A DNA stretch of 52,458 nt from Candidatus Sigynarchaeum calidifontis. GTDB lineage: Archaea; Asgardarchaeota; Lokiarchaeia; Sigyniarchaeales; Sigyniarchaeaceae. The position numbers and the translations under genes were made by a program. The stretch spans positions 1 through 52,458 of the forward strand of contig JAUQYZ020000122.1 in the NCBI GenBank assembly GCA_030587475.2. Direction: 5' to 3'. Numbering within the stretch: the first letter of the stretch is position 1; every line of letters begins with the position of its first letter. Shown here piece after piece: positions 32,651-40,066 of this stretch. The notes under the pieces were generated by a model that saw only the letters and a list, made by a program, of their open reading frames with translations, was not told the DNA's origin and ran no database searches.

Positions 32651-32908
32651 TCATTCCTCCTCTTTATGCTCGGACGCCCACCACGCCTCATACTCCTTAT
32701 TTCTCGCCTCTTTAGATTCTCTCTTTATTCTTTGGCGTCGATTGTCGTCGTACATGGCGATGTCCTCCTTGAGCTTGTCGCGCATCTTGTCGAACTCGTC
32801 ACGGGTAAATGACAAACCGCACGACTCGCAAATGATCATTTTACGAGCAGGATTGAACCGCGTCGTTCCGCCGCATTCGGGACAGCTAACAGCTTTCCTT
32901 CCTGACAA
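32651..32908 (-). CDS. Small TFIIB-type zinc-ribbon protein with charged helical tail
   Basis: CPECGG...ICESCG; TTG start. Confidence 0.75.
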   Translation of the reverse strand: MSGRKAVSCPECGGTTRFNPARKMIICESCGLSFTRDEFDKMRDKLKEDIAMYDDNRRQRIKRESKEARNKEYEAWWASEHKEEE

Positions 32909-33115: not shown

Positions 33116-33853
33116 CTACACGTTATTATCCGCGATAGCCTTGATATCATCAGCCAACTTGTTCAGATTAAACTTCATAAGGCCTTCCTTCACATCTTTA
33201 CCATAATAAACGAGGATCAAGACCTCACCTGCCTTCTTCACGGTAATTTTCGCGGTCTCGCTAGTTATCGTGAAATCCGTGAGCCCCGAGAGCTTCAAGC
33301 TCTTGCCTATGACCGATGATTGCGACATCATGGATCCGGCTAGTAATGACACGTCCTCGAGTTTCACCTCCTCGGCGAGAGCCTTGGCGATGATGAACCC
33401 CTCGTAATCGAAGCATGCGACGGCTTTCACGTGCGGCGTGCCCGCGGCGAATTTCCGGATGATGTCTTGCAAGTTGTCACGAAGTGCTTTTTCAGCATCA
33501 GAGAGCGCAGCCTCATCGCGCTCGTCGAGCGATCGTCCCTTGAAGAAAGAGGAAGTCATCACGTGTCCCGTGGTGCCCCTTTTCAACTCGGTCTCGGACA
33601 TGGATTCCTCGGTCACGTAGTCGATCCGCGTGTACCCGCGCACCCGGTAGTTCTGGTCTAAAAATATCTGCAAAGCATGGCCACACGGGGTGACCGTGTG
33701 CGGGATCAACACGTTCGTCAGACCACCAGATCCAAGATCCTTGACGCTCAATGGCATGGTCACGGTGACCGCCGCTTTACATGTCGGACACTTGAGATTG
33801 AAGACCTTGGACGCGGACGTGTTTTGCGGCGTGGCACTCTTCGGCGCGGACAT
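33116..33853 (-). CDS. N-terminal Zn-binding domain fused to roadblock/LC7 domain
   Basis: CPTC...PCGH..QIFLDQNYRVRG, then VKAVACFDYEGFIIA...SLLAGSMMSQS...EGLMKFNLNKLADDI. Confidence 0.85.
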   Translation of the reverse strand: MSAPKSATPQNTSASKVFNLKCPTCKAAVTVTMPLSVKDLGSGGLTNVLIPHTVTPCGHALQIFLDQNYRVRGYTRIDYVTEESMSETELKRGTTGHVMTSSFFKGRSLDERDEAALSDAEKALRDNLQDIIRKFAAGTPHVKAVACFDYEGFIIAKALAEEVKLEDVSLLAGSMMSQSSVIGKSLKLSGLTDFTITSETAKITVKKAGEVLILVYYGKDVKEGLMKFNLNKLADDIKAIADNNV

Positions 33854-34026: not shown

Positions 34027-34665
34027 ATGGAAATCAAATGGATCGCGCACGCATGCTTCCAGATCACGGCGGGAAACGACGTGATCTACACGGATCCATA
34101 CGAGGTGCCGGCAGGCATGCCGAAGGCGACCATCATCCTGGTATCGCACGATCATTACGACCATGCTGATGACCACTGCATTGCTTCGCTCAAGGGCGAT
34201 GCTACGGTTGTGGTCTGCCCGAAATCGTGCCAAGGCAAGCTCGCAAAGTTCAAGCCGCGGGCTATAGAGCCTGGGGAATCGATCGAGATAAACAATATCA
34301 AGGTCCAGGCGGTACCCGCGTACACGTTCCCTGGAAAGCCGTTCCATCCGAAAGCGAACAAGTGGAACGGTTACGTCGCCGAGATCCAGGGCAAGAAGGT
34401 GTATCACGCGGGTGACTGCGACATCATGGACGACATGAAAGCCCTCGCCGCGCTGGCCATCGACGTAGCCATGCTCCCTGTTGGTGACAAGGGCTTCACG
34501 ATGGATTTCAAGGACGCGGCGAAGGCGACGGGGTACATCAAACCCAAGATCATGGTTCCCATGCACGACTGGGACCAGGATCTCGCCCCGCTCGCGAAGC
34601 TGGTCGCGAAGGAGGCACCGGGCGTGAGGGTGGAGGTGTTAAAAGGGAGATCCTTGACCTTATAG
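34027..34665 (+). CDS. Metallo-beta-lactamase-fold hydrolase
   Basis: WIAHACF, YTDPY, SHDHYDH, YHAGD and VPMHD. Confidence 0.92.
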   Translation: MEIKWIAHACFQITAGNDVIYTDPYEVPAGMPKATIILVSHDHYDHADDHCIASLKGDATVVVCPKSCQGKLAKFKPRAIEPGESIEINNIKVQAVPAYTFPGKPFHPKANKWNGYVAEIQGKKVYHAGDCDIMDDMKALAALAIDVAMLPVGDKGFTMDFKDAAKATGYIKPKIMVPMHDWDQDLAPLAKLVAKEAPGVRVEVLKGRSLTL

Positions 34666-34671
34666 GCAGAT

Positions 34672-35247
34672 TCAGAGCAAGTTCTTCAAGGATTTTTCGA
34701 TCTTTTTTATCTCGGCTTGTAGCATGTTGATCTTGTCATAAATGATGGAAATATACTTCAATTTCATCTCTTTGGTGGGCAATTCGCTAATTTTCTGTCG
34801 CAAGTCGTAGAGAGTGAGGTTGAGTAGCTTGTTGTCGAGATTTCCCTCGAGCTCATCGAGGTTAACGTGGAACGAGATTTTCAACCCCTTCTCTGCGAGG
34901 CCCGAGAAGAACATGCGGATCTTGGAATTGAAAAACATGTACTGACGTTCCATCTCGGGTAGCAATTCCTTGCCGCGCTCCGTGATGTAATATTGCTTCT
35001 GCGTGCGGCCCGAGACGATGCGCTCGTGGAAATCGAGCAACCCTTTCTTCTTCAGATCTGTGAGCACAGGGTAGATGCTGGAATCCGTCTCGAAAAACTC
35101 CTTCGTGTCGCCAAATTCTGCCTCGATCCGCTTTTTCAACTCGTAGCCGTGGATCTCGGCGTCACCCGAGTTCAATATGGACAAGATGATGAAATGCGAG
35201 AAGCTACGCCGCATCTTCTTGAAATACTTGGCGATCTCGTCTTGCAT
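34672..35247 (-). CDS. PadR-family transcriptional regulator
   Basis: ILSIL...HGYELKKRIE...SIYPVLTDL...KQYYITERG. Confidence 0.9.
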   Translation of the reverse strand: MQDEIAKYFKKMRRSFSHFIILSILNSGDAEIHGYELKKRIEAEFGDTKEFFETDSSIYPVLTDLKKKGLLDFHERIVSGRTQKQYYITERGKELLPEMERQYMFFNSKIRMFFSGLAEKGLKISFHVNLDELEGNLDNKLLNLTLYDLRQKISELPTKEMKLKYISIIYDKINMLQAEIKKIEKSLKNLL

Positions 35248-35377
35248 GGTCGTCCATCGGGTCAATCCTCGCAGCGTGCGAGGAATGTTGCTATGCACGG
35301 TAATAAGAACGTGGGGCTATTAATTGGATATACCTTTTAACGAAAACCCACGGGGATTCGGGGAGGTGCCGAAGACC

Positions 35378-36976
35378 TCAACCGAAGTGGCCATGCAGCT
35401 TCCCCATCCATTGCTCGAGCCGCTTCAGCTCTTTCTGTGCCCGCGAATCCCCGTGCTTGAAGAGCTCTTCCTGAATCATCTTTGCCTTGTACACGCGGTT
35501 GTATGCCGTTTGAAAATCCTTGTTTTTTTCAGCAATCTTCGCCTCCTTCACGTAAGCGTCGTACATGGCCTTGTAGTTCCGGATGAGCCGCTTCACCTCC
35601 TTCGATATGAATTTTTCCATCTCGCTATCCTGGAGCACGAGTGATACGATGAAATTGAGCGCTTTATCGAGATTGTAATTGCCCTTGACCGAGATCTCGA
35701 AGATCGCCTTTGGGGAACGGTCGATCTCGTCGTAGTCGAGGGCACTCTGGACGAGGACGAGAGGTTTTGCGTCGGGCAAGTCGACCTTGTTCACGAGCAC
35801 GAGGAGCGGCTTGTTTCGCGTGTCGGGGTGCCTCAATATCGACCACAATGCGTCCTTGGCCTCGTCGAACCTGGCGGCATCCGCCGCGTCGATGATGAAG
35901 ATCATGAGATCCTGGTTCTGCCAATAATTCATCCAGGCCGAGCGGAACGCCTTCTGCCCCCCAAGATCGTTGAAGGCGAATCGAACGTTGCCAAGGACGA
36001 GATGCGTGAGGTTAACGCCGAGGGTAGGCGTTTGATCCTTGAAACCATCATTCTTGAGGTATTCGACGAACGTCGTCTTGCCAGCCCTGTCCAAACCGAA
36101 TAAAAAAATGGAAACGACCTTGAGCGCCTTCTTGCCGCTTTGCTCGGCCGCCGCGGCCTCATCCTTCAGAACCCCGAGGTACGAGCGGCTCGGTTTCTCC
36201 GCTTCGGCCTTTTCTTTATCTTCGATCGCCTTCTGCACCTTTATGATGGTCGTGGTTAGCTTCTGATATTCCTTGCCGCTCGGCAAGATGCCGAATTGGA
36301 ACAAGTTGGAAGAGATCTCCTTTGCCAGGTTCAAGCAAGCGAGCGCATCCTCGAGATTGCCGTTTTTAAAATGGTCGGCTCCTTTTTGGGAAAATTCCTT
36401 GTAACTAGATAGCATAATACGGGATAGTTGCTTGATCTCCTCGCTGACGAAATATTCGATGGCCTCGTCCTTGAGGACGATGCTGGTCATGGCGTTCAGC
36501 ACGGCGTCCATGTTCGTGCCCGTTTTTGCCGATACCTCGTAGATGGCCCAGTCCCGGTCAGCGTATTCGCGCAGCTGGTACCGTTCCATCACGGCCATTT
36601 TTGACATGGCCAGGGGCTCGTCGATCTTGTTGATGAGAATGAGCAGCGGCGTGCCCGCGACCTTCGGGTTCTTGAGCATCCGGTCCAGCTCGCCTTTCGC
36701 GTCGTTGATGTGGTTTTCGTCACGGTTGAGCCCGTCTATGACGAATACCAGCACGTGCGGCCGTGCCAGGTACGAGTTCCACTGCTTGCGGAAAATTTCT
36801 TGCCCGCCGACATCCGTGAATTCGAGCACGAGCTTTTGGAAGATGAGCTGGCTGATCGACACGCCCATCGTCGGTGTTTGTGGCACGAACTTTCGCTGGC
36901 GGAAATATTCGATGATCGTGCTCTTGCCGGCACGAGACAGGCCGAAGACGAAAACTCCGATTTTTTTCGCCGACAT
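35378..36976 (-). CDS. Tandem double Arf/Sar-like small GTPase, each G domain followed by a helical-bundle module
   Basis: Unit 1: GLSRAGKST, PTMG, DVGGQ, NKID, SAK. Unit 2: GLDRAGKTT, PTLG, DLGGQ, NKVD, SVK. Confidence 0.92.
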   Translation of the reverse strand: MSAKKIGVFVFGLSRAGKSTIIEYFRQRKFVPQTPTMGVSISQLIFQKLVLEFTDVGGQEIFRKQWNSYLARPHVLVFVIDGLNRDENHINDAKGELDRMLKNPKVAGTPLLILINKIDEPLAMSKMAVMERYQLREYADRDWAIYEVSAKTGTNMDAVLNAMTSIVLKDEAIEYFVSEEIKQLSRIMLSSYKEFSQKGADHFKNGNLEDALACLNLAKEISSNLFQFGILPSGKEYQKLTTTIIKVQKAIEDKEKAEAEKPSRSYLGVLKDEAAAAEQSGKKALKVVSIFLFGLDRAGKTTFVEYLKNDGFKDQTPTLGVNLTHLVLGNVRFAFNDLGGQKAFRSAWMNYWQNQDLMIFIIDAADAARFDEAKDALWSILRHPDTRNKPLLVLVNKVDLPDAKPLVLVQSALDYDEIDRSPKAIFEISVKGNYNLDKALNFIVSLVLQDSEMEKFISKEVKRLIRNYKAMYDAYVKEAKIAEKNKDFQTAYNRVYKAKMIQEELFKHGDSRAQKELKRLEQWMGKLHGHFG

Positions 36977-37175: not shown

Positions 37176-37862
37176 TTACTTTCCTTTTCCTTTCGTGAAT
37201 CCAAGTAGGATTATGAAGTACAGCACGCCGATAAACAGCCCCATGACGAACAACAAGTCCGACATTAGGACCCACACGTAGATCATATAGATCGTCGGGA
37301 GCGCGAAGATAATCGCCAAGAAGATAACTGGCCACACGGGTATCCGTGCCTGGGTTATCTTGATCTCGTAGAGCATGGGCAAGATCATCATGAGGATGTC
37401 AACCGTGATCATGAGCTGGAACGGGGGGAGCATTGGGTTCGAGCGATCCAACAGCGGCAACCACACGATGCCCCCGAAATTTTGCGTGAGGGGTCTCGTC
37501 CTGAGATCCCCGTTGAATGCAGGAAGAATAGCCCCCATCAAGAACAGCACCCCGACACCGACGGCGTAGAGAATGATCGAGTTCGCGTAATCGGAGTCCT
37601 TGCGCTTATCCTTCCCTTTCATGGCGTAATTCGTGATCATGTCACGCACGAGAGCGATCGTCCATAACACGAGTAATATGACCACCGAACCAAGATAATC
37701 GAAGCCTATCCACCAGACATATGCAAAAACGATGGTGGCGATCACGTAAACGAGGCTATCGAGTCGTTCCCTTCGCTTGAATAGCTTGTAGAGGAGAAAG
37801 ACCGCGTATATCAGTAGCAAAACGAGGATCATTGCGATCTGGTCGGGAGCTTGGAGTATCAT
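37176..37862 (-). CDS. Multi-pass membrane protein of unknown function
   Basis: 228 aa with about 7 hydrophobic segments. Confidence 0.75.
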   Translation of the reverse strand: MILQAPDQIAMILVLLLIYAVFLLYKLFKRRERLDSLVYVIATIVFAYVWWIGFDYLGSVVILLVLWTIALVRDMITNYAMKGKDKRKDSDYANSIILYAVGVGVLFLMGAILPAFNGDLRTRPLTQNFGGIVWLPLLDRSNPMLPPFQLMITVDILMMILPMLYEIKITQARIPVWPVIFLAIIFALPTIYMIYVWVLMSDLLFVMGLFIGVLYFIILLGFTKGKGK

Positions 37863-38041: not shown

Positions 38042-40066
38042 TCAAGTTGATGCCTGTTTATTCATTTCTGTCAAGGCATCGCCGGAAATCGCATCGGCTT
38101 CCATCCGCTTCACGAGCTGCTGGTTTATCATGACGTTCAGATCGTGCGTGAGCAAATAGATCTCGACGATCGTGCCCAGCAGCCACGATCCGATGATGAT
38201 GCAGACCATGCTTCCCACGATGACCTTGAACGACGTGAGAGTTCCACCTGTCACCCACTGTTCCCCTCCGCTCCACTGGTCGGCGGGTCGTAGCCAGTTG
38301 ATGTAACAGACCATGAACACGGCCACGATGATCGACACGACGATCGCGATGGACATGTACTTGCGCCTGGCCATGGCACTGAAAACCAGCGCCAATAACA
38401 TCCCCAAGGCACCGTACCCGGCGAAAAATGACAGCTGCTCGAGCCATTCATGGAAGCTGGTAAAATCAGCCGTGACGGCATTCGTCCCGTGGAAAAGCAC
38501 GTAGATGTTATACCCGTACGCCCCGATCGCCACGAACGCGAGGATCACGCCAGTCACGGCGCTCACCCACCGCTGCTTGGTCATCTTGTCGACCTTGCCG
38601 TCCCGGATGTCCGTGCTGCCGAAGAACTTCGATGGTGCCGAGATGCCCTCCTTTTTCATGTCCTCGTCGAGTATATAGCAGTACAAGAAAGTTACATACA
38701 CGATGTCGAGGTTCTTGCCCATGATCCATGCCGGCGCGCCGCTGAACACGCCGAAGATGGCCGCGAAGACGATCATGGCGGTCTTCGAGTCCATGCCGAA
38801 CCGGTCCATGAACCACAGGCCGACGATCGCGCCCGCGCCGGCGCACAACAATACAAAGATCACCTTCGTGAAGCCGAAAACCCCCCGGATCGACGTCTTT
38901 CGAATGAACACGTCGACCGCGTTCGCCCCGACGTACTCGACAGATTTCTTGATCGCGGAAGGGGCATTCCGGTTTTCGATGACGATCGAGGGGAGCGTGA
39001 AGAAATTGACGAGCAACCACAGCTTCTCGAGCATCTTGATCGCCCAGTCGGCCATTTTTTGGCTGATAGATTTCTTGTTGATGAGGCCGGGCATGAGCTT
39101 GCCCTTTAGCACGACTTTGATACCGATTTTCGACAACTTCTCAGTATCCTTGGATCGTTTTGCCATCTGCGTGAGGATCCACTTGATCGTGTAGATGATG
39201 GCCGAAAAAACGGCGTACGTGAAGATCGGCCTGAACCGGCGGTTCATGACGCGGAAGCCATCGAGGTGCCCTTCGGGGGCACCGCGGTAATACGCGTGCG
39301 CCATGTGCACGGTGGCCCCGTAGTAATAATTGTAGGAGATCGAGACGAGGAAGTAATAGAGCAGCGTCATGCCCACGACGAACCAGCTGCCCGACATGTC
39401 GGTCGATTGGATTTCCATTATGAATTTCTCAAAGTCGGCCGTTATTTCGATGAATTTATCAATATAAACTGCCCAAATGCCGGATGTTAATACAAGATAG
39501 ATGATACCAAAATACAAGCCGTTCCAGAAGATGCGCTTGTTTTTCATGAGCAAATCCGCGGTGAGGTTTATAAGGCGGCTTGCCACCTTCAATTTTTTCC
39601 AGAAAAAGGCCAGGACGGCGGGTGGGACGATAGCTCCTATCAGGAAGAGATATTCATAGCCCTGGAAATCCTTCGCGAGGTAAACGAGCAGGATGGAGAG
39701 CCCCGCGGTCAAGGCCGTGAGGAGCCAGATGAATAGCGCCCCGATGAGCTTAAGCAAGTTCAATGCCATCAATGAAGCGATGTAGCTCATGAATATGGCT
39801 AGAATAACAATGACAAGTACTTCTGTCTTGTGGCTCATCACGAGCTGGGTTATACCCTGAATAGGAACGGTTATCACGGGGATAACCCCCGCGACCTTGT
39901 GATACACACTCATCCCGCTAAGTGCCGTGTAATAAATAAAAACGCCGATGGCAACCACGAACAACAAGCCAGCCCCGTAGTAGAGCCGCCCGAGCTTGAG
40001 GTACTCCTTGTACTTGAACGTGCCGTTCTCGAAAACACCCTTGTATTCGTCTTTGACGTCACCCAT
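38042..40066 (-). CDS. Multi-pass membrane protein resembling the choline transporter-like (CTL/SLC44/Pns1) family, with extra C-terminal TM module
   Basis: KKLKVASRLI, GATVHMAHAYY, AIIYTIKWIL, LEKLWLLVNFFTLPSIVIE..APSAIKKS and DIVYVTFLYCYILD. Confidence 0.6.
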   Translation of the reverse strand: MGDVKDEYKGVFENGTFKYKEYLKLGRLYYGAGLLFVVAIGVFIYYTALSGMSVYHKVAGVIPVITVPIQGITQLVMSHKTEVLVIVILAIFMSYIASLMALNLLKLIGALFIWLLTALTAGLSILLVYLAKDFQGYEYLFLIGAIVPPAVLAFFWKKLKVASRLINLTADLLMKNKRIFWNGLYFGIIYLVLTSGIWAVYIDKFIEITADFEKFIMEIQSTDMSGSWFVVGMTLLYYFLVSISYNYYYGATVHMAHAYYRGAPEGHLDGFRVMNRRFRPIFTYAVFSAIIYTIKWILTQMAKRSKDTEKLSKIGIKVVLKGKLMPGLINKKSISQKMADWAIKMLEKLWLLVNFFTLPSIVIENRNAPSAIKKSVEYVGANAVDVFIRKTSIRGVFGFTKVIFVLLCAGAGAIVGLWFMDRFGMDSKTAMIVFAAIFGVFSGAPAWIMGKNLDIVYVTFLYCYILDEDMKKEGISAPSKFFGSTDIRDGKVDKMTKQRWVSAVTGVILAFVAIGAYGYNIYVLFHGTNAVTADFTSFHEWLEQLSFFAGYGALGMLLALVFSAMARRKYMSIAIVVSIIVAVFMVCYINWLRPADQWSGGEQWVTGGTLTSFKVIVGSMVCIIIGSWLLGTIVEIYLLTHDLNVMINQQLVKRMEADAISGDALTEMNKQAST

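What the first reader, a model, noticed from the sequence alone, without database searches (positions are those of the whole stretch)
35378..36976. Internally duplicated Arf/Sar-like GTPase: (G domain + helical bundle) x2
Seen: two complete G1-G5 sets, both with the catalytic Gln and the Arf-type RxxWxxY. The helical modules align (VLKDEAIEYFVSEEIK...AKEISSNLFQFG vs VLQDSEMEKFISKEVK...AKMIQEELFKHG). There is no N-terminal amphipathic helix or Gly2, and G1 differs between units (GLS vs GLD). Established: Arf-family proteins are normally single-domain, and Asgard Arf-related GTPases are known. Inference: an intramolecular pseudo-heterodimeric switch with MIT/TPR-like helical modules that may couple to membrane remodelling.
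Basis: partly seen in the sequence, partly recalled or inferred. Interest (0 to 1): 0.78.

Follow-up and report, generated by a model that had tools for sequence, protein, structure and literature searches.

The report
Tandem Arf GTPase with helical bundles
This is a real, conserved gene of one Loki-type Asgard archaeal lineage that joins two different Arf-like GTPase switches in one protein, each followed by a small MIT/TPR-like three-helix bundle; the layout seems undescribed, but it is a lineage-restricted variant of a known protein family and its function is untested.

Summary
Observation confirmed. ORF 35378-36976 (-) encodes 532 aa. It has two Pfam Arf domains and a (G domain + three-helix bundle) unit present twice (34% identity over 245 aa, E 6e-49). 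Both G domains keep all G1-G5 motifs and the catalytic Gln.

It is not an assembly artefact. About 28 full-length tandem homologues come from independent assemblies. Among the genomes sampled, they occur only in the window's own GTDB family (Sigynarchaeota-type Lokiarchaeales).

Trees show that G1 and G2 are old, separate lineages. Two related forms exist:
- A paralogous subfamily, also in this genome, keeps G1 but has turned G2 into a pseudoGTPase.
- A ~350-aa bundle-G-bundle family matches residues 188-532.

Other points:
- G1 has no Arf-type N-terminal helix.
- The bundles resemble MIT/TPR domains in fold, but homology is unproven.
- A Zn-ribbon-Roadblock gene is conserved nearby and occurs in the same genomes.

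My reading is a two-headed switch. G1 is the core GTPase, G2 a second or regulatory head, the bundles the output modules, and the Roadblock protein the likely regulator. All of this is inferred.

The main texts of the key Asgard Arf papers do not describe the architecture. One supplementary table has a column for two-GTPase-domain proteins. This scan had already noted the two paralogous forms elsewhere in the same genome. Verdict: new variant of a known kind, moderate interest.

The parts
35378..36976 (-). Whole gene: 532-aa tandem Arf-family GTPase (P0001), stop codon at 35378-35380
   Evidence: There are 27 aligned full-length homologues. An upstream stop lies 7 codons before the ATG.
36473..36976 (-). 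G domain 1 (aa 1-168), Arf type, complete G1-G5 with Gln59, no N-terminal helix
   Evidence: The G1 clade has 100/99 support.
36200..36472 (-). Helical bundle 1 (aa 169-259): three helices 171-204, 208-227, 234-259. The junction motif VLKDEAIEYF (aa 167-176) is the most conserved non-G segment
   Evidence: Net charge is about 0.
36122..36199 (-). Variable linker (aa 260-285) holding a conserved short motif SYLGVLKDEA (aa 265-274, nt 36155-36184)
   Evidence: Linker identity is 32% but the motif is kept in most subfamily A members. AF2 pLDDT here is 43-45.
35633..36121 (-). G domain 2 (aa 286-448), Arf type, complete G1-G5 with Gln341. Best solved relative is HodArfR1 (8oul)
   Evidence: The G2 + bundle-G-bundle clade has 100/99 support.
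35381..35632 (-). Helical bundle 2 (aa 449-532): three-helix bundle, strongly basic
   Evidence: The model has pLDDT 91. MIT/TPR-like fold matches appear. Net charge is +6 here and +4 to +13 across the family.
34672..35298 (-). PadR-family regulator with a long C-terminal extension, directly downstream and conserved in this position
   Evidence: Pfam PadR E 8.8e-13. The same position is seen in L001, L003, L007, L008.
34027..34665 (+). Metallo-beta-lactamase-fold protein on the opposite strand, present in 4 of 5 syntenic loci
33116..33853 (-). Zn-ribbon (CPxC...CxH) + Roadblock/LC7 protein (P0002, 245 aa): candidate regulator of the GTPase
   Evidence: The A4 profile hits Roadblock/LC7 structure 9jue_D at E 6.8e-6 over residues 122-241. 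Pfam Robl_LC7 is sub-threshold. It is syntenic in all five loci. It appears to lie on the same contigs as the tandem Arf homologues. Full-length orthologues occur only in the 3 genomes that have the tandem Arf.
32651..32908 (-). Small zinc-ribbon protein (85 aa), downstream of the Zn-Roadblock gene
   Evidence: Equivalent ~80-aa Zn_Ribbon genes are in L003 and L008.
37176..37862 (-). 228-aa polytopic membrane protein upstream. Genes of similar size (229-232 aa) lie upstream in L003, L007 and L008
   Evidence: This rests on size and position only; homology was not aligned.
38042..40066 (-). 674-aa membrane protein with a choline-transporter-like (CTL/SLC44) domain, upstream. Genes of 664-686 aa lie upstream in L003, L007 and L008
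   Evidence: Pfam Choline_transpo E 1.1e-8, 35.2 bits against cut-off 26.9. L008 has the same weak Pfam hit.

Best explanation
Shown: this is a genuine gene of a Sigynarchaeota-type (Lokiarchaeales) Asgard lineage. It encodes two non-identical Arf-family G domains on one chain. Each is followed by a three-helix bundle of about 85-90 residues. Both G domains keep every nucleotide-binding and catalytic motif, and orthologues conserve them equally. G1 and G2 are old, separate lineages. A whole-gene paralogue keeps G1 intact but has degraded G2 to a pseudoGTPase.

Inferred: the protein is a two-headed molecular switch. G1 is the indispensable GTPase. The G2 unit is a second head with a regulatory or scaffolding role. 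It is nucleotide-gated in this subfamily and nucleotide-independent in the paralogue. The Arf-type interswitch is kept but the Arf-type N-terminal amphipathic helix is absent. The nucleotide state is therefore probably read out through the C-terminal bundles. The G-domain/bundle junction is the most conserved non-G segment. The bundles would act as partner-binding modules, and the strongly basic second bundle could contact an acidic surface such as the membrane. The conserved neighbouring Zn-ribbon-Roadblock protein is the most likely GAP- or GEF-type regulator, by analogy with MglB-MglA and Ragulator-Rag.
For: - Two Arf domains and an internal repeat.
- Intact motifs in both domains in 14 of 14 subfamily A proteins.
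- Equal conservation: G1 64% and G2 66.5% mean identity in subfamily A. In subfamily B, G1 is 73% and the degenerate G2 is 50%.
- Subfamily B G2 has lost the P-loop Lys/Thr, the switch I Thr, DxxGQ and the G4 Lys (GTDxxGxx, NNFD), while G1 stays intact.
- The G1 clade has 100/99 support and the G2 clade 100/99. The A/B split is congruent in both halves, which indicates duplication of a gene that was already tandem.
[quoted passage not shown] G1 lacks the 14-16 N-terminal residues of those proteins.
- The invariant columns V167 L168 K169 and the nearly invariant D170 I173 E174 sit at the G-domain/bundle junction.
- Bundle 2 carries a net charge of +4 to +13 in all 27 proteins.
- The Zn-Roadblock gene keeps its position in five loci at 54-100% identity.
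- Contig lengths and adjacent locus tags point to shared contigs for about seven homologue pairs. G130 has both genes on contig C172.
- Phyletic co-occurrence is 3/3 genomes with both genes against 0/148.
Against: - No confident inter-domain geometry: the full-length AF2 model has pTM 0.44 and a linker pLDDT of about 45.
- All carriers belong to one family-level lineage. Synteny and co-occurrence are therefore not independent observations. Flanking housekeeping genes (TPP enzyme, P-type ATPase) are also syntenic in the closest relatives.
- The Roadblock gene is separated from the GTPase by PadR and an opposite-strand MBL gene, so they are not one operon.
- Three-helix bundles are generic.
- There is no direct evidence for membrane binding, for read-out through the bundles, or for any crosstalk between G1 and G2.
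Confidence: 0.5

Rival explanations
1. Two independent Arf-type switches share one chain without crosstalk. The tandem simply provides bivalency, for example a tether or adaptor that recruits two different partners. The pseudoGTPase paralogue is then a version active on one side only.
For: AF2 gives no confident contact between the units. The linker is poorly conserved and, in subfamily B, long and Pro-rich. Single-unit G+bundle proteins (P0085, P0086) and bundle-G-bundle proteins exist on their own, so a unit can function alone.
Against: The order G1-then-G2 and the fusion have been kept through the A/B duplication and all later divergence. A short conserved motif persists inside the otherwise free linker. 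In B the degenerate G2 is still 50% conserved, which suggests a retained structural or partner role next to G1.
Confidence: 0.27
2. The G2 unit is a built-in activator of G1 and acts as a GEF or co-GAP. This would be a single-chain version of the eukaryotic Arl13B-to-Arl3 cascade, in which an Arf-like G domain plus its C-terminal helix activates another Arf-like GTPase.
For: The top solved relatives of G1 are Arl3 (5di3_A). Arl13B (4m9q_A, 5di3_B) ranks second to fourth for G2. Arl13B is the solved Arf-like protein whose match extends into a C-terminal helix: 193-210 aligned columns. G2 can lose nucleotide binding and still be retained.
Against: The rank differences among Arf/Arl hits are within noise (E 1e-22 to 1e-25). 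No interface is predicted. The function of Arl13B is cited from my own knowledge and from PMC8358228, not tested here.
Confidence: 0.12
3. The bundles are true MIT domains that bind MIM motifs of Asgard ESCRT-III. The protein would then couple an Arf-type switch to ESCRT or Vps4 membrane scission.
For: MIT domains are the commonest natural class among the best structural matches. Examples are archaeal CdvC MIT 2w2u_B (Z 10.8, rmsd 1.1 A over 69 residues), MITD1, katanin and VPS4A. An archaeal MIT cluster gives TM 0.73. hhalign aligns the helix 1-2 hairpin in the same register as the Asgard Vps4 MIT domain.
Against: Z below about 13 is not distinctive for helical bundles (note). Foldseek finds nothing at E <= 0.001. 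Pfam MIT finds the genome's Vps4 and other MIT proteins but not these modules. The hhalign probability is only 25%. No ESCRT gene was seen among the neighbours examined (32.6-40.1 kb of the window) or in the syntenic loci.
Confidence: 0.07
4. The fusion is an assembly or gene-calling artefact that joins two neighbouring Arf genes.
For: None found. One relative (G139) has the gene split over two contig ends, but that is fragmentation, not fusion.
Against: The 532-codon frame is uninterrupted. There are 27 aligned full-length tandem proteins, plus P0012, from independent NCBI, JGI, ENA and Logan assemblies down to 40% identity. The fusion was re-read from DNA in four other loci.
Confidence: 0.01

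Closest known systems
Asgard ArfR / AArf GTPases (HodArfR1 8OUK/8OUL, GerdArfR1 8OUM/8OUN; bioRxiv 10.1101/2024.02.28.582541; PMC11914678)
   Same: Both have an Arf-type G domain with GLDxAGKT, PTxG, DxGGQ, RxxWxxY and NKxD. [quoted passage not shown] HodArfR1 is the best solved sequence relative of G2 (E 8e-25). Both are Asgard proteins.
   Different: This protein has two G domains per chain. G1 has no N-terminal amphipathic helix, which is the membrane switch those papers demonstrate. Each G domain carries a C-terminal three-helix bundle. Placement inside the ArfR clade, as opposed to ArfL, was not tested with reference sequences.
Paralogous families in the same lineage: GTPase-pseudoGTPase tandem (subfamily B, e.g. 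G000:C252:106-1821) and bundle-G-bundle proteins (~350 aa, e.g. G000:C200 and C126)
   Same: They use the same building unit, and their G1 and G2 lineages are orthologous.
   Different: Subfamily B has lost all nucleotide motifs in G2, has a longer Pro-rich linker and sits in a different neighbourhood (CitG, LysR, IF-2B). The ~350-aa form lacks G1.
Eukaryotic Arl13B and multidomain ARF proteins, including the Euglena 'Arl13Triple' (PMC8358228)
   Same: Both have an Arf-like G domain followed by a helical C-terminal extension. Tandem repetition of Arf-like G domains has a precedent. Arl13B structures align beyond the G domain.
   Different: Those proteins are eukaryotic and ciliary, their extension is a coiled coil plus a Pro-rich tail rather than a compact bundle, and there is no repeat of a G+bundle unit. 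The resemblance is in architecture. Specific relatedness was not shown.
MglA-MglB and Rag-Ragulator (small GTPase with Roadblock/LC7 regulators; Asgard examples in PMC10933270)
   Same: A Ras-superfamily GTPase is genomically coupled to a Roadblock-domain protein.
   Different: The G domains here are Arf type, not MglA or Rag. The Roadblock protein carries an N-terminal Zn ribbon. Binding was not shown.
Der/EngA (bacterial tandem-G-domain GTPase)
   Same: Two non-equivalent G domains sit in one polypeptide.
   Different: Der/EngA belongs to a different GTPase class (TRAFAC Era-like), has a KH domain and acts in ribosome assembly. Here MMR_HSR1 scores far below Arf. It is an analogy only.
MIT domains (Vps4/CdvC, katanin, MITD1) and single TPR hairpins
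   Same: Both are three-helix bundles of about 70-85 residues. They superpose at rmsd 1.1-1.7 A over 65-69 residues. There are TPR-like sequence hints: PICH TPR 5jno_B at E 5.6e-5 and TPR_1 at E 0.0028.
   Different: There is no significant sequence or profile match to MIT. Helix 1 is about 34-40 residues long and follows on directly from the G domain's last helix. No MIM partner is known.

Membership tests
Arf family (Pfam PF00025) | Profile score above the curated cut-off | tested here: met
   Both domains score above the cut-off. The whole protein scores 249.8 bits. The six-frame search gives 122.9 and 133.1 bits against a cut-off of 22.3.
Arf family (Pfam PF00025) | Complete G1-G5 motifs with catalytic Gln in DxGGQ and switch II RxxWxxY | tested here: met
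   Both domains have them, and they are conserved in 14 of 14 subfamily A orthologues.
Arf family (Pfam PF00025) | [quoted passage not shown] | tested here: met
   G1 aligns without gaps to Arl3 and Arl1 from PTxG to DxGGQ. G2 aligns to HodArfR1 with single-residue gaps outside the interswitch.
Arf family (Pfam PF00025) | N-terminal amphipathic helix (myristoylated Gly2 in many eukaryotic members) that docks on the GDP form | tested here: not met
   For G1, only 4 residues precede beta-1, there is no Gly2, and a stop lies 7 codons upstream. For G2, a short conserved linker motif (aa 265-274) lies upstream but was modelled with pLDDT of about 45, so this is inconclusive.
Arf family (Pfam PF00025) | GDP/GTP interswitch toggle (two-residue register shift) | not testable with these tools
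   It needs structures in both nucleotide states.
ArfR clade sensu Vargova et al. (as opposed to ArfL) | Phylogenetic placement with ArfR and eukaryotic Arf/SR-beta reference sequences | not tested
   Reference sequences could not be loaded. There are leads only. The best solved relatives are eukaryotic Arl/Arf and HodArfR1/GerdArfR1. Table S1 of the preprint lists 'numerous ArfR' for a Sigynarchaeota-type MAG. The rows of Table S3 for that MAG are cut in the stored file.
MIT domain (PF04212) | Sequence or profile match to MIT | tested here: not met
   None of 8 helical modules hit Pfam MIT at E <= 10. A six-frame PF04212 search of the own genome finds Vps4 and five other sites but none in this gene or its paralogues. 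hhalign against the Asgard Vps4 MIT alignment gives 24.8% probability over 33 columns.
MIT domain (PF04212) | Asymmetric three-helix bundle fold | tested here: inconclusive
   Many MIT domains score Z 9-10.8 (2w2u_B rmsd 1.1 A over 69 residues), but this is below the level that is distinctive for helical bundles. Foldseek gives E >= 0.2. An Atlas MIT cluster gives TM 0.73.
MIT domain (PF04212) | Binding of MIM peptides of ESCRT-III | not testable with these tools
   It needs a binding assay.
TPR repeat | Pfam TPR score above the cut-off | tested here: not met
   TPR_1 gives E 0.0028 and 17.8 bits against a cut-off of 27.8, for bundle 1 only. The profile hit to the PICH TPR 5jno_B is E 5.6e-5 over 34 residues. 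At most there is one TPR-like hairpin.
Roadblock/LC7 (neighbour P0002) | Profile match covering the Roadblock domain | tested here: met
   The family profile A4 hits Roadblock/LC7 structures 9jue_D (E 6.8e-6, residues 122-241) and 7f8m_A (E 4.7e-4). The single-sequence Pfam score is sub-threshold at 17.3 against 23 bits.
Der/EngA-type tandem GTPases | Two Era-like G domains plus a C-terminal KH-like domain | tested here: not met
   The G domains are Arf type. MMR_HSR1 gives E 1.6e-10 against Arf E 1.3e-74, and there is no KH domain.

The most novel reading that the evidence does not exclude
The protein is a self-contained, single-chain small-GTPase circuit. The Arf interswitch toggle of each head is read out by its C-terminal MIT-like bundle rather than by an N-terminal membrane helix. 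The G2 unit regulates G1 in cis, in an Arl13B-to-Arl3-like way. The conserved linker motif or an ESCRT-III-type MIM peptide docks on a bundle. The Zn-ribbon-Roadblock protein resets the switch at the membrane. This would be a prokaryotic example of a G-protein cascade, and of an Arf-MIT link, not known in eukaryotes.
Probability: 0.1. Interest if true: 0.8.

Novelty: new variant of a known kind. Interest (0 to 1): 0.5.

Why it matters
Asgard archaea carry very large expansions of small GTPases, and what these proteins do is largely unknown. This family has three useful properties.

- It provides a natural series within one genome: a single G+bundle unit, a tandem with two live G domains, a tandem with one live and one dead G domain, and a form without G1. 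The series shows which part is indispensable and suits biochemical dissection.
- It is an Arf-type switch that has given up the N-terminal membrane helix. It therefore tests whether the interswitch toggle can drive a different output.
- It has a candidate regulator, a Roadblock protein, encoded nearby.

The family is restricted to one lineage that is not on the line to eukaryotes. It therefore says more about the evolvability of Arf switches than about eukaryogenesis itself.

Tried and rejected
- Complex prediction of the full-length GTPase (alignment A1) with the Zn-Roadblock protein (A4) gave no verdict, with a score of 0.00 in both runs. It is not used as evidence either way.
- The look-up of sequencing runs listed no run for the gene, DNA or RNA. 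Read continuity and expression could therefore not be checked, and read laying was not used.
- Foldseek of the full-length model returned only Arf-fold chains.
- Foldseek of the bundle alone found nothing at E <= 0.001.
- The ESM Atlas feature search on the bundle gave no usable hit.
- Pfam on eight isolated helical modules gave only sub-threshold TPR and scattered chance hits.
- The first phylum-wide genome search failed technically and was repeated with fewer genomes.
- I looked in the Vargova et al. supplement for the classification of Sigynarchaeota tandem proteins. The stored table is cut before those rows.
- The supplements of PMC11914678 are not held.
- I considered and rejected an assembly artefact, membership of Der/EngA, and a hidden upstream N-terminal helix.
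- I considered that the linker motif SYLGVLKDEA is a leftover of the G-domain/bundle junction (VLKDEA recurs there). The single-unit proteins have no such N-terminal element, so this remains unexplained.
Full report
**The object.** The minus-strand ORF at 35378-36976 encodes 532 residues. Pfam finds the Arf family twice, with E 1.3e-74 for the whole protein. A six-frame search of the genome gives 122.9 and 133.1 bits for the two domains against a cut-off of 22.3. The two halves align at 34% identity over 245 residues (E 6e-49). The alignment runs through the G domain into the helical tail, so the repeated unit is G domain plus helices. Both units have a complete P-loop, switch I Thr, DxGGQ with the catalytic Gln, RxxWxxY, NKxD and an S-A/V-K G5.

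**It is not an artefact.** A word-indexed search of 5.8 billion proteins returned about 28 full-length tandem proteins of 521-606 aa, from NCBI, JGI, ENA and Logan assemblies. Twenty-seven of them align end to end. I re-read the fused frame from DNA in four other contigs. No public sequencing run could be listed for the stretch, so read continuity itself was not examined.

**Family structure.** The alignment separates two subfamilies.
- Subfamily A (about 520-590 aa, 52-87% identical to the query) has two intact G domains.
- Subfamily B (550-606 aa, 40-46% identical) has an intact first domain. Its second domain has lost the P-loop Lys and Ser/Thr, the switch I Thr, DxxGQ and the G4 Lys (GTDxxGxx, NNFD). 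That makes it a pseudoGTPase.

The window's own genome holds one of each: this gene and C252:106-1821. One protein, P0018, has an A-type first domain and a partly decayed second domain.

A third family of about 350 aa matches residues 188-532 at 43% identity. That stretch covers bundle 1, the linker, G2 and bundle 2, without G1. The genome has two such genes, on C200 and C126. Complete single-unit G+bundle proteins of 265 and 281 aa also exist in Asgard MAGs.

In an exhaustive scan of 1.84 billion cluster representatives, only 23 proteins reach E 1e-30. The family is therefore small.

**Evolution.** In trees of the isolated G domains, all first domains (A and B) form one clade with 100/99 support. 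All second domains, together with the bundle-G-bundle proteins, form another clade with 100/99 support. The two clades are sisters relative to other Arf-like proteins of the same genome, with weak support (72/84 in the careful tree, SH-aLRT 93 in the quick tree). The A/B split appears in both halves. So the G1 and G2 lineages separated first. The tandem gene then duplicated as a whole, and one copy let its second head decay. The single-unit proteins sit beside the G1 clade with moderate support (91/69). The relation of the ~350-aa proteins to the tandem second domains is unresolved.

Within subfamily A the two G domains are equally conserved (64% and 66.5% mean identity). The bundles are somewhat less conserved (56% and 60%) and the linker little (32%). 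In subfamily B the live head is 73% conserved and the dead one 50%.

**Distribution.** Among 151 genomes sampled from the same class, matches at E <= 1e-60 occur only in the three genomes of the window's own GTDB family. None of 200 genomes sampled across the phylum has a match at E <= 1e-50, apart from the window's own genome. Source names of the homologues include Sigynarchaeota, Lokiarchaeota and Promethearchaeota. A few are labelled Hodarchaeota or Bathyarchaeota. The Vargova preprint's Table S1 reassigns one such 'Bathyarchaeota' MAG to Lokiarchaeales.

**Relation to Arf proteins.** The best solved sequence relatives are eukaryotic Arl3, Arl1, Arl2 and Arf1 for G1. For G2 they are HodArfR1 (8oul, E 8e-25), Arl6, Arl13B and Arl8. 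Foldseek of the full model gives the same Arf-fold list. For G1, switch I, the interswitch and switch II align to Arl3 and Arl1 without a gap. For G2, HodArfR1 aligns with two single-residue gaps outside the interswitch. The Arf-specific interswitch length is therefore kept.

The defining Arf N-terminal amphipathic helix is missing from G1. Residues 3-7 correspond to residues 16-18 of Arl1 and Arl3, and a stop codon lies seven codons upstream of the ATG. I therefore file the domains as Arf-family G domains. I do not claim that the protein works by the Arf membrane-helix switch. Membership of the ArfR clade rather than ArfL was not tested, because reference sequences could not be brought in.

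**The helical modules.** AF2 models each as three helices: 171-204, 208-227 and 234-259, then 451-484, 488-507 and 512-531. Bundle 2 modelled alone reaches pLDDT 91.
- An alignment of all 48,161 representative PDB chains puts many MIT domains near the top. Examples are archaeal CdvC 2w2u_B (Z 10.8, rmsd 1.1 A over 69 residues), MITD1, katanin, VPS4A, Vta1 and spartin. De novo designs and TPR proteins score the same, and Z under about 13 is not distinctive for helical bundles.
- Foldseek finds nothing at E <= 0.001.
- The ESM Atlas search returns TPR proteins and one archaeal MIT cluster.
- At sequence level there are only a sub-threshold TPR_1 hit and a 34-residue profile match to the PICH TPR.
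- Pfam MIT detects Vps4 and other MIT proteins in this genome but not these modules.
- A profile-profile comparison with Asgard Vps4 MIT domains gives 25% probability.

'MIT/TPR-like three-helix bundle' is thus a fair structural description. Homology to MIT is unproven, and nothing links the protein to ESCRT.

Two further features may matter.
- The junction between the G domain and the bundle (VLKDEAIEYF, aa 167-176) holds the most conserved non-G positions of the family.
- Bundle 2 is strongly basic in every member (+4 to +13), whereas bundle 1 is about neutral.

The otherwise variable linker keeps a short motif: SYLGxLKDEA in A and SLxxQLKAPNxLxP in B. Its role is unexplained.

**Neighbourhood.** Five loci with 54-100% identical GTPases share the same order. 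A PadR-family gene lies directly downstream. A metallo-beta-lactamase-fold gene follows on the other strand in 4 of 5 loci. Next comes a 245-268-aa protein, and then often an ~80-aa zinc ribbon. Upstream, 4 of 5 loci have a ~230-aa membrane protein and a 664-686-aa membrane protein with a choline-transporter-like domain.

The 245-aa protein has an N-terminal CPxC...CxH zinc ribbon and a C-terminal Roadblock/LC7 domain (profile hit to 9jue_D, E 6.8e-6 over residues 122-241). Its family is as small as the GTPase's, with 24 clusters. Matching contig lengths and adjacent locus tags suggest that about seven homologue pairs share a contig. G130 carries both genes on contig C172. Full-length orthologues occur only in the same three genomes.

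Roadblock proteins are established partners of small GTPases (MglB-MglA, Ragulator-Rag). That makes this the best candidate regulator.

There are caveats. All carriers are close kin, and in the nearest relatives unrelated flanking genes are syntenic too. The genes are not one operon. A complex prediction gave no verdict. Subfamily B sits in a different neighbourhood without a Roadblock gene.

**Mechanism.** What is shown is a conserved protein with two non-equivalent, apparently competent Arf-type heads. It has a sister gene in which only the first head stays competent. From this I infer the following.
- G1 is the indispensable switch.
- The G2 unit is a second or regulatory head whose structural role can survive loss of nucleotide binding.
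- The nucleotide state is read out through the C-terminal bundles rather than through an N-terminal membrane helix.
- The Roadblock neighbour regulates the cycle.

I put this at about 0.5. The main rival, at 0.27, is a bivalent adaptor with two independent switches. A cis GEF-like role of G2, modelled on Arl13B-Arl3, gets 0.12. An ESCRT link through true MIT domains gets 0.07.

**Novelty.** The main texts of the two Asgard Arf papers do not mention tandem G domains or these bundles. One notes that Asgard Arfs carry diverse extra domains. Table S3 of the other has a column for 'proteins with two GTPases domains', so such proteins were catalogued but not described. Multidomain ARF proteins, including a triple-G Arl13 relative, are known in eukaryotes. 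Earlier notes of this scan had already flagged the subfamily B gene and a bundle-G-bundle gene elsewhere in this genome, and the gene cluster here. My trees and alignments agree with them. I rate the finding as a new variant of a known kind, of moderate interest.

Noticed in passing
window 38042-40066 (-): A 674-aa polytopic protein has a Pfam Choline_transpo (CTL/SLC44) match above the cut-off (35.2 against 26.9 bits, E 1.1e-8). Proteins of similar size lie upstream of the tandem GTPase in three other loci, and one of them has the same weak Pfam hit.
   Followed up: partly
G000:C252:106-1821 (locus L004): This is the paralogue in the same genome. The first Arf domain is intact and the second is a pseudoGTPase (no GK[ST], no DxxGQ, NNFD). 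The linker is longer and Pro-rich. The neighbourhood (CitG, LysR, IF-2B) is conserved with L009.
   Followed up: yes
P0018 (549 aa, metagenomic homologue): This is an intermediate form. G1 groups with subfamily A. G2 is partly decayed (GLDKTGKE, QFSND, NKFD) and groups with subfamily B on a long branch. This points either to independent decay of the second head or to long-branch attraction.
   Followed up: partly
window 36155-36184 (aa 265-274) and the equivalent place in subfamily B: A short conserved motif sits in an otherwise variable linker: SYLGxLKDEA in A and SLxxQLKAPNxLxP in B. The A form repeats the VLKDEA of the G-domain/bundle junction. Its function is unknown.
   Followed up: partly
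window 35381-35632 (bundle 2): The C-terminal bundle carries a net charge of +4 to +13 in all 27 tandem proteins, whereas bundle 1 is about neutral. It may be a surface for membrane or nucleic-acid contact.
   Followed up: partly
window 34672-35298 (-): A PadR-family protein has a C-terminal extension of about 90 residues. It lies directly downstream of the GTPase in all five loci examined.
   Followed up: no
P0089 (Acanthaster planci XP_022097941.1, 390 aa) and P0087-P0100: Eukaryote-type proteins carry two Arf domains in tandem, without helical bundles and with N-terminal MG... starts. They appear among the weaker hits. Some may be merged gene models of neighbouring Arf genes.
   Followed up: no
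G139:C21:16610-17353 and G139:C288:83-814: In the third genome of the family the subfamily A gene is split over two contig ends. This is assembly fragmentation, and it accounts for 'partial' database entries such as P0079 and P0081.
   Followed up: partly
G000 whole genome: A six-frame search found 67 Arf-profile matches in a 5.0-Mb genome, many in proteins of 300-600 aa with extra domains.
   Followed up: no
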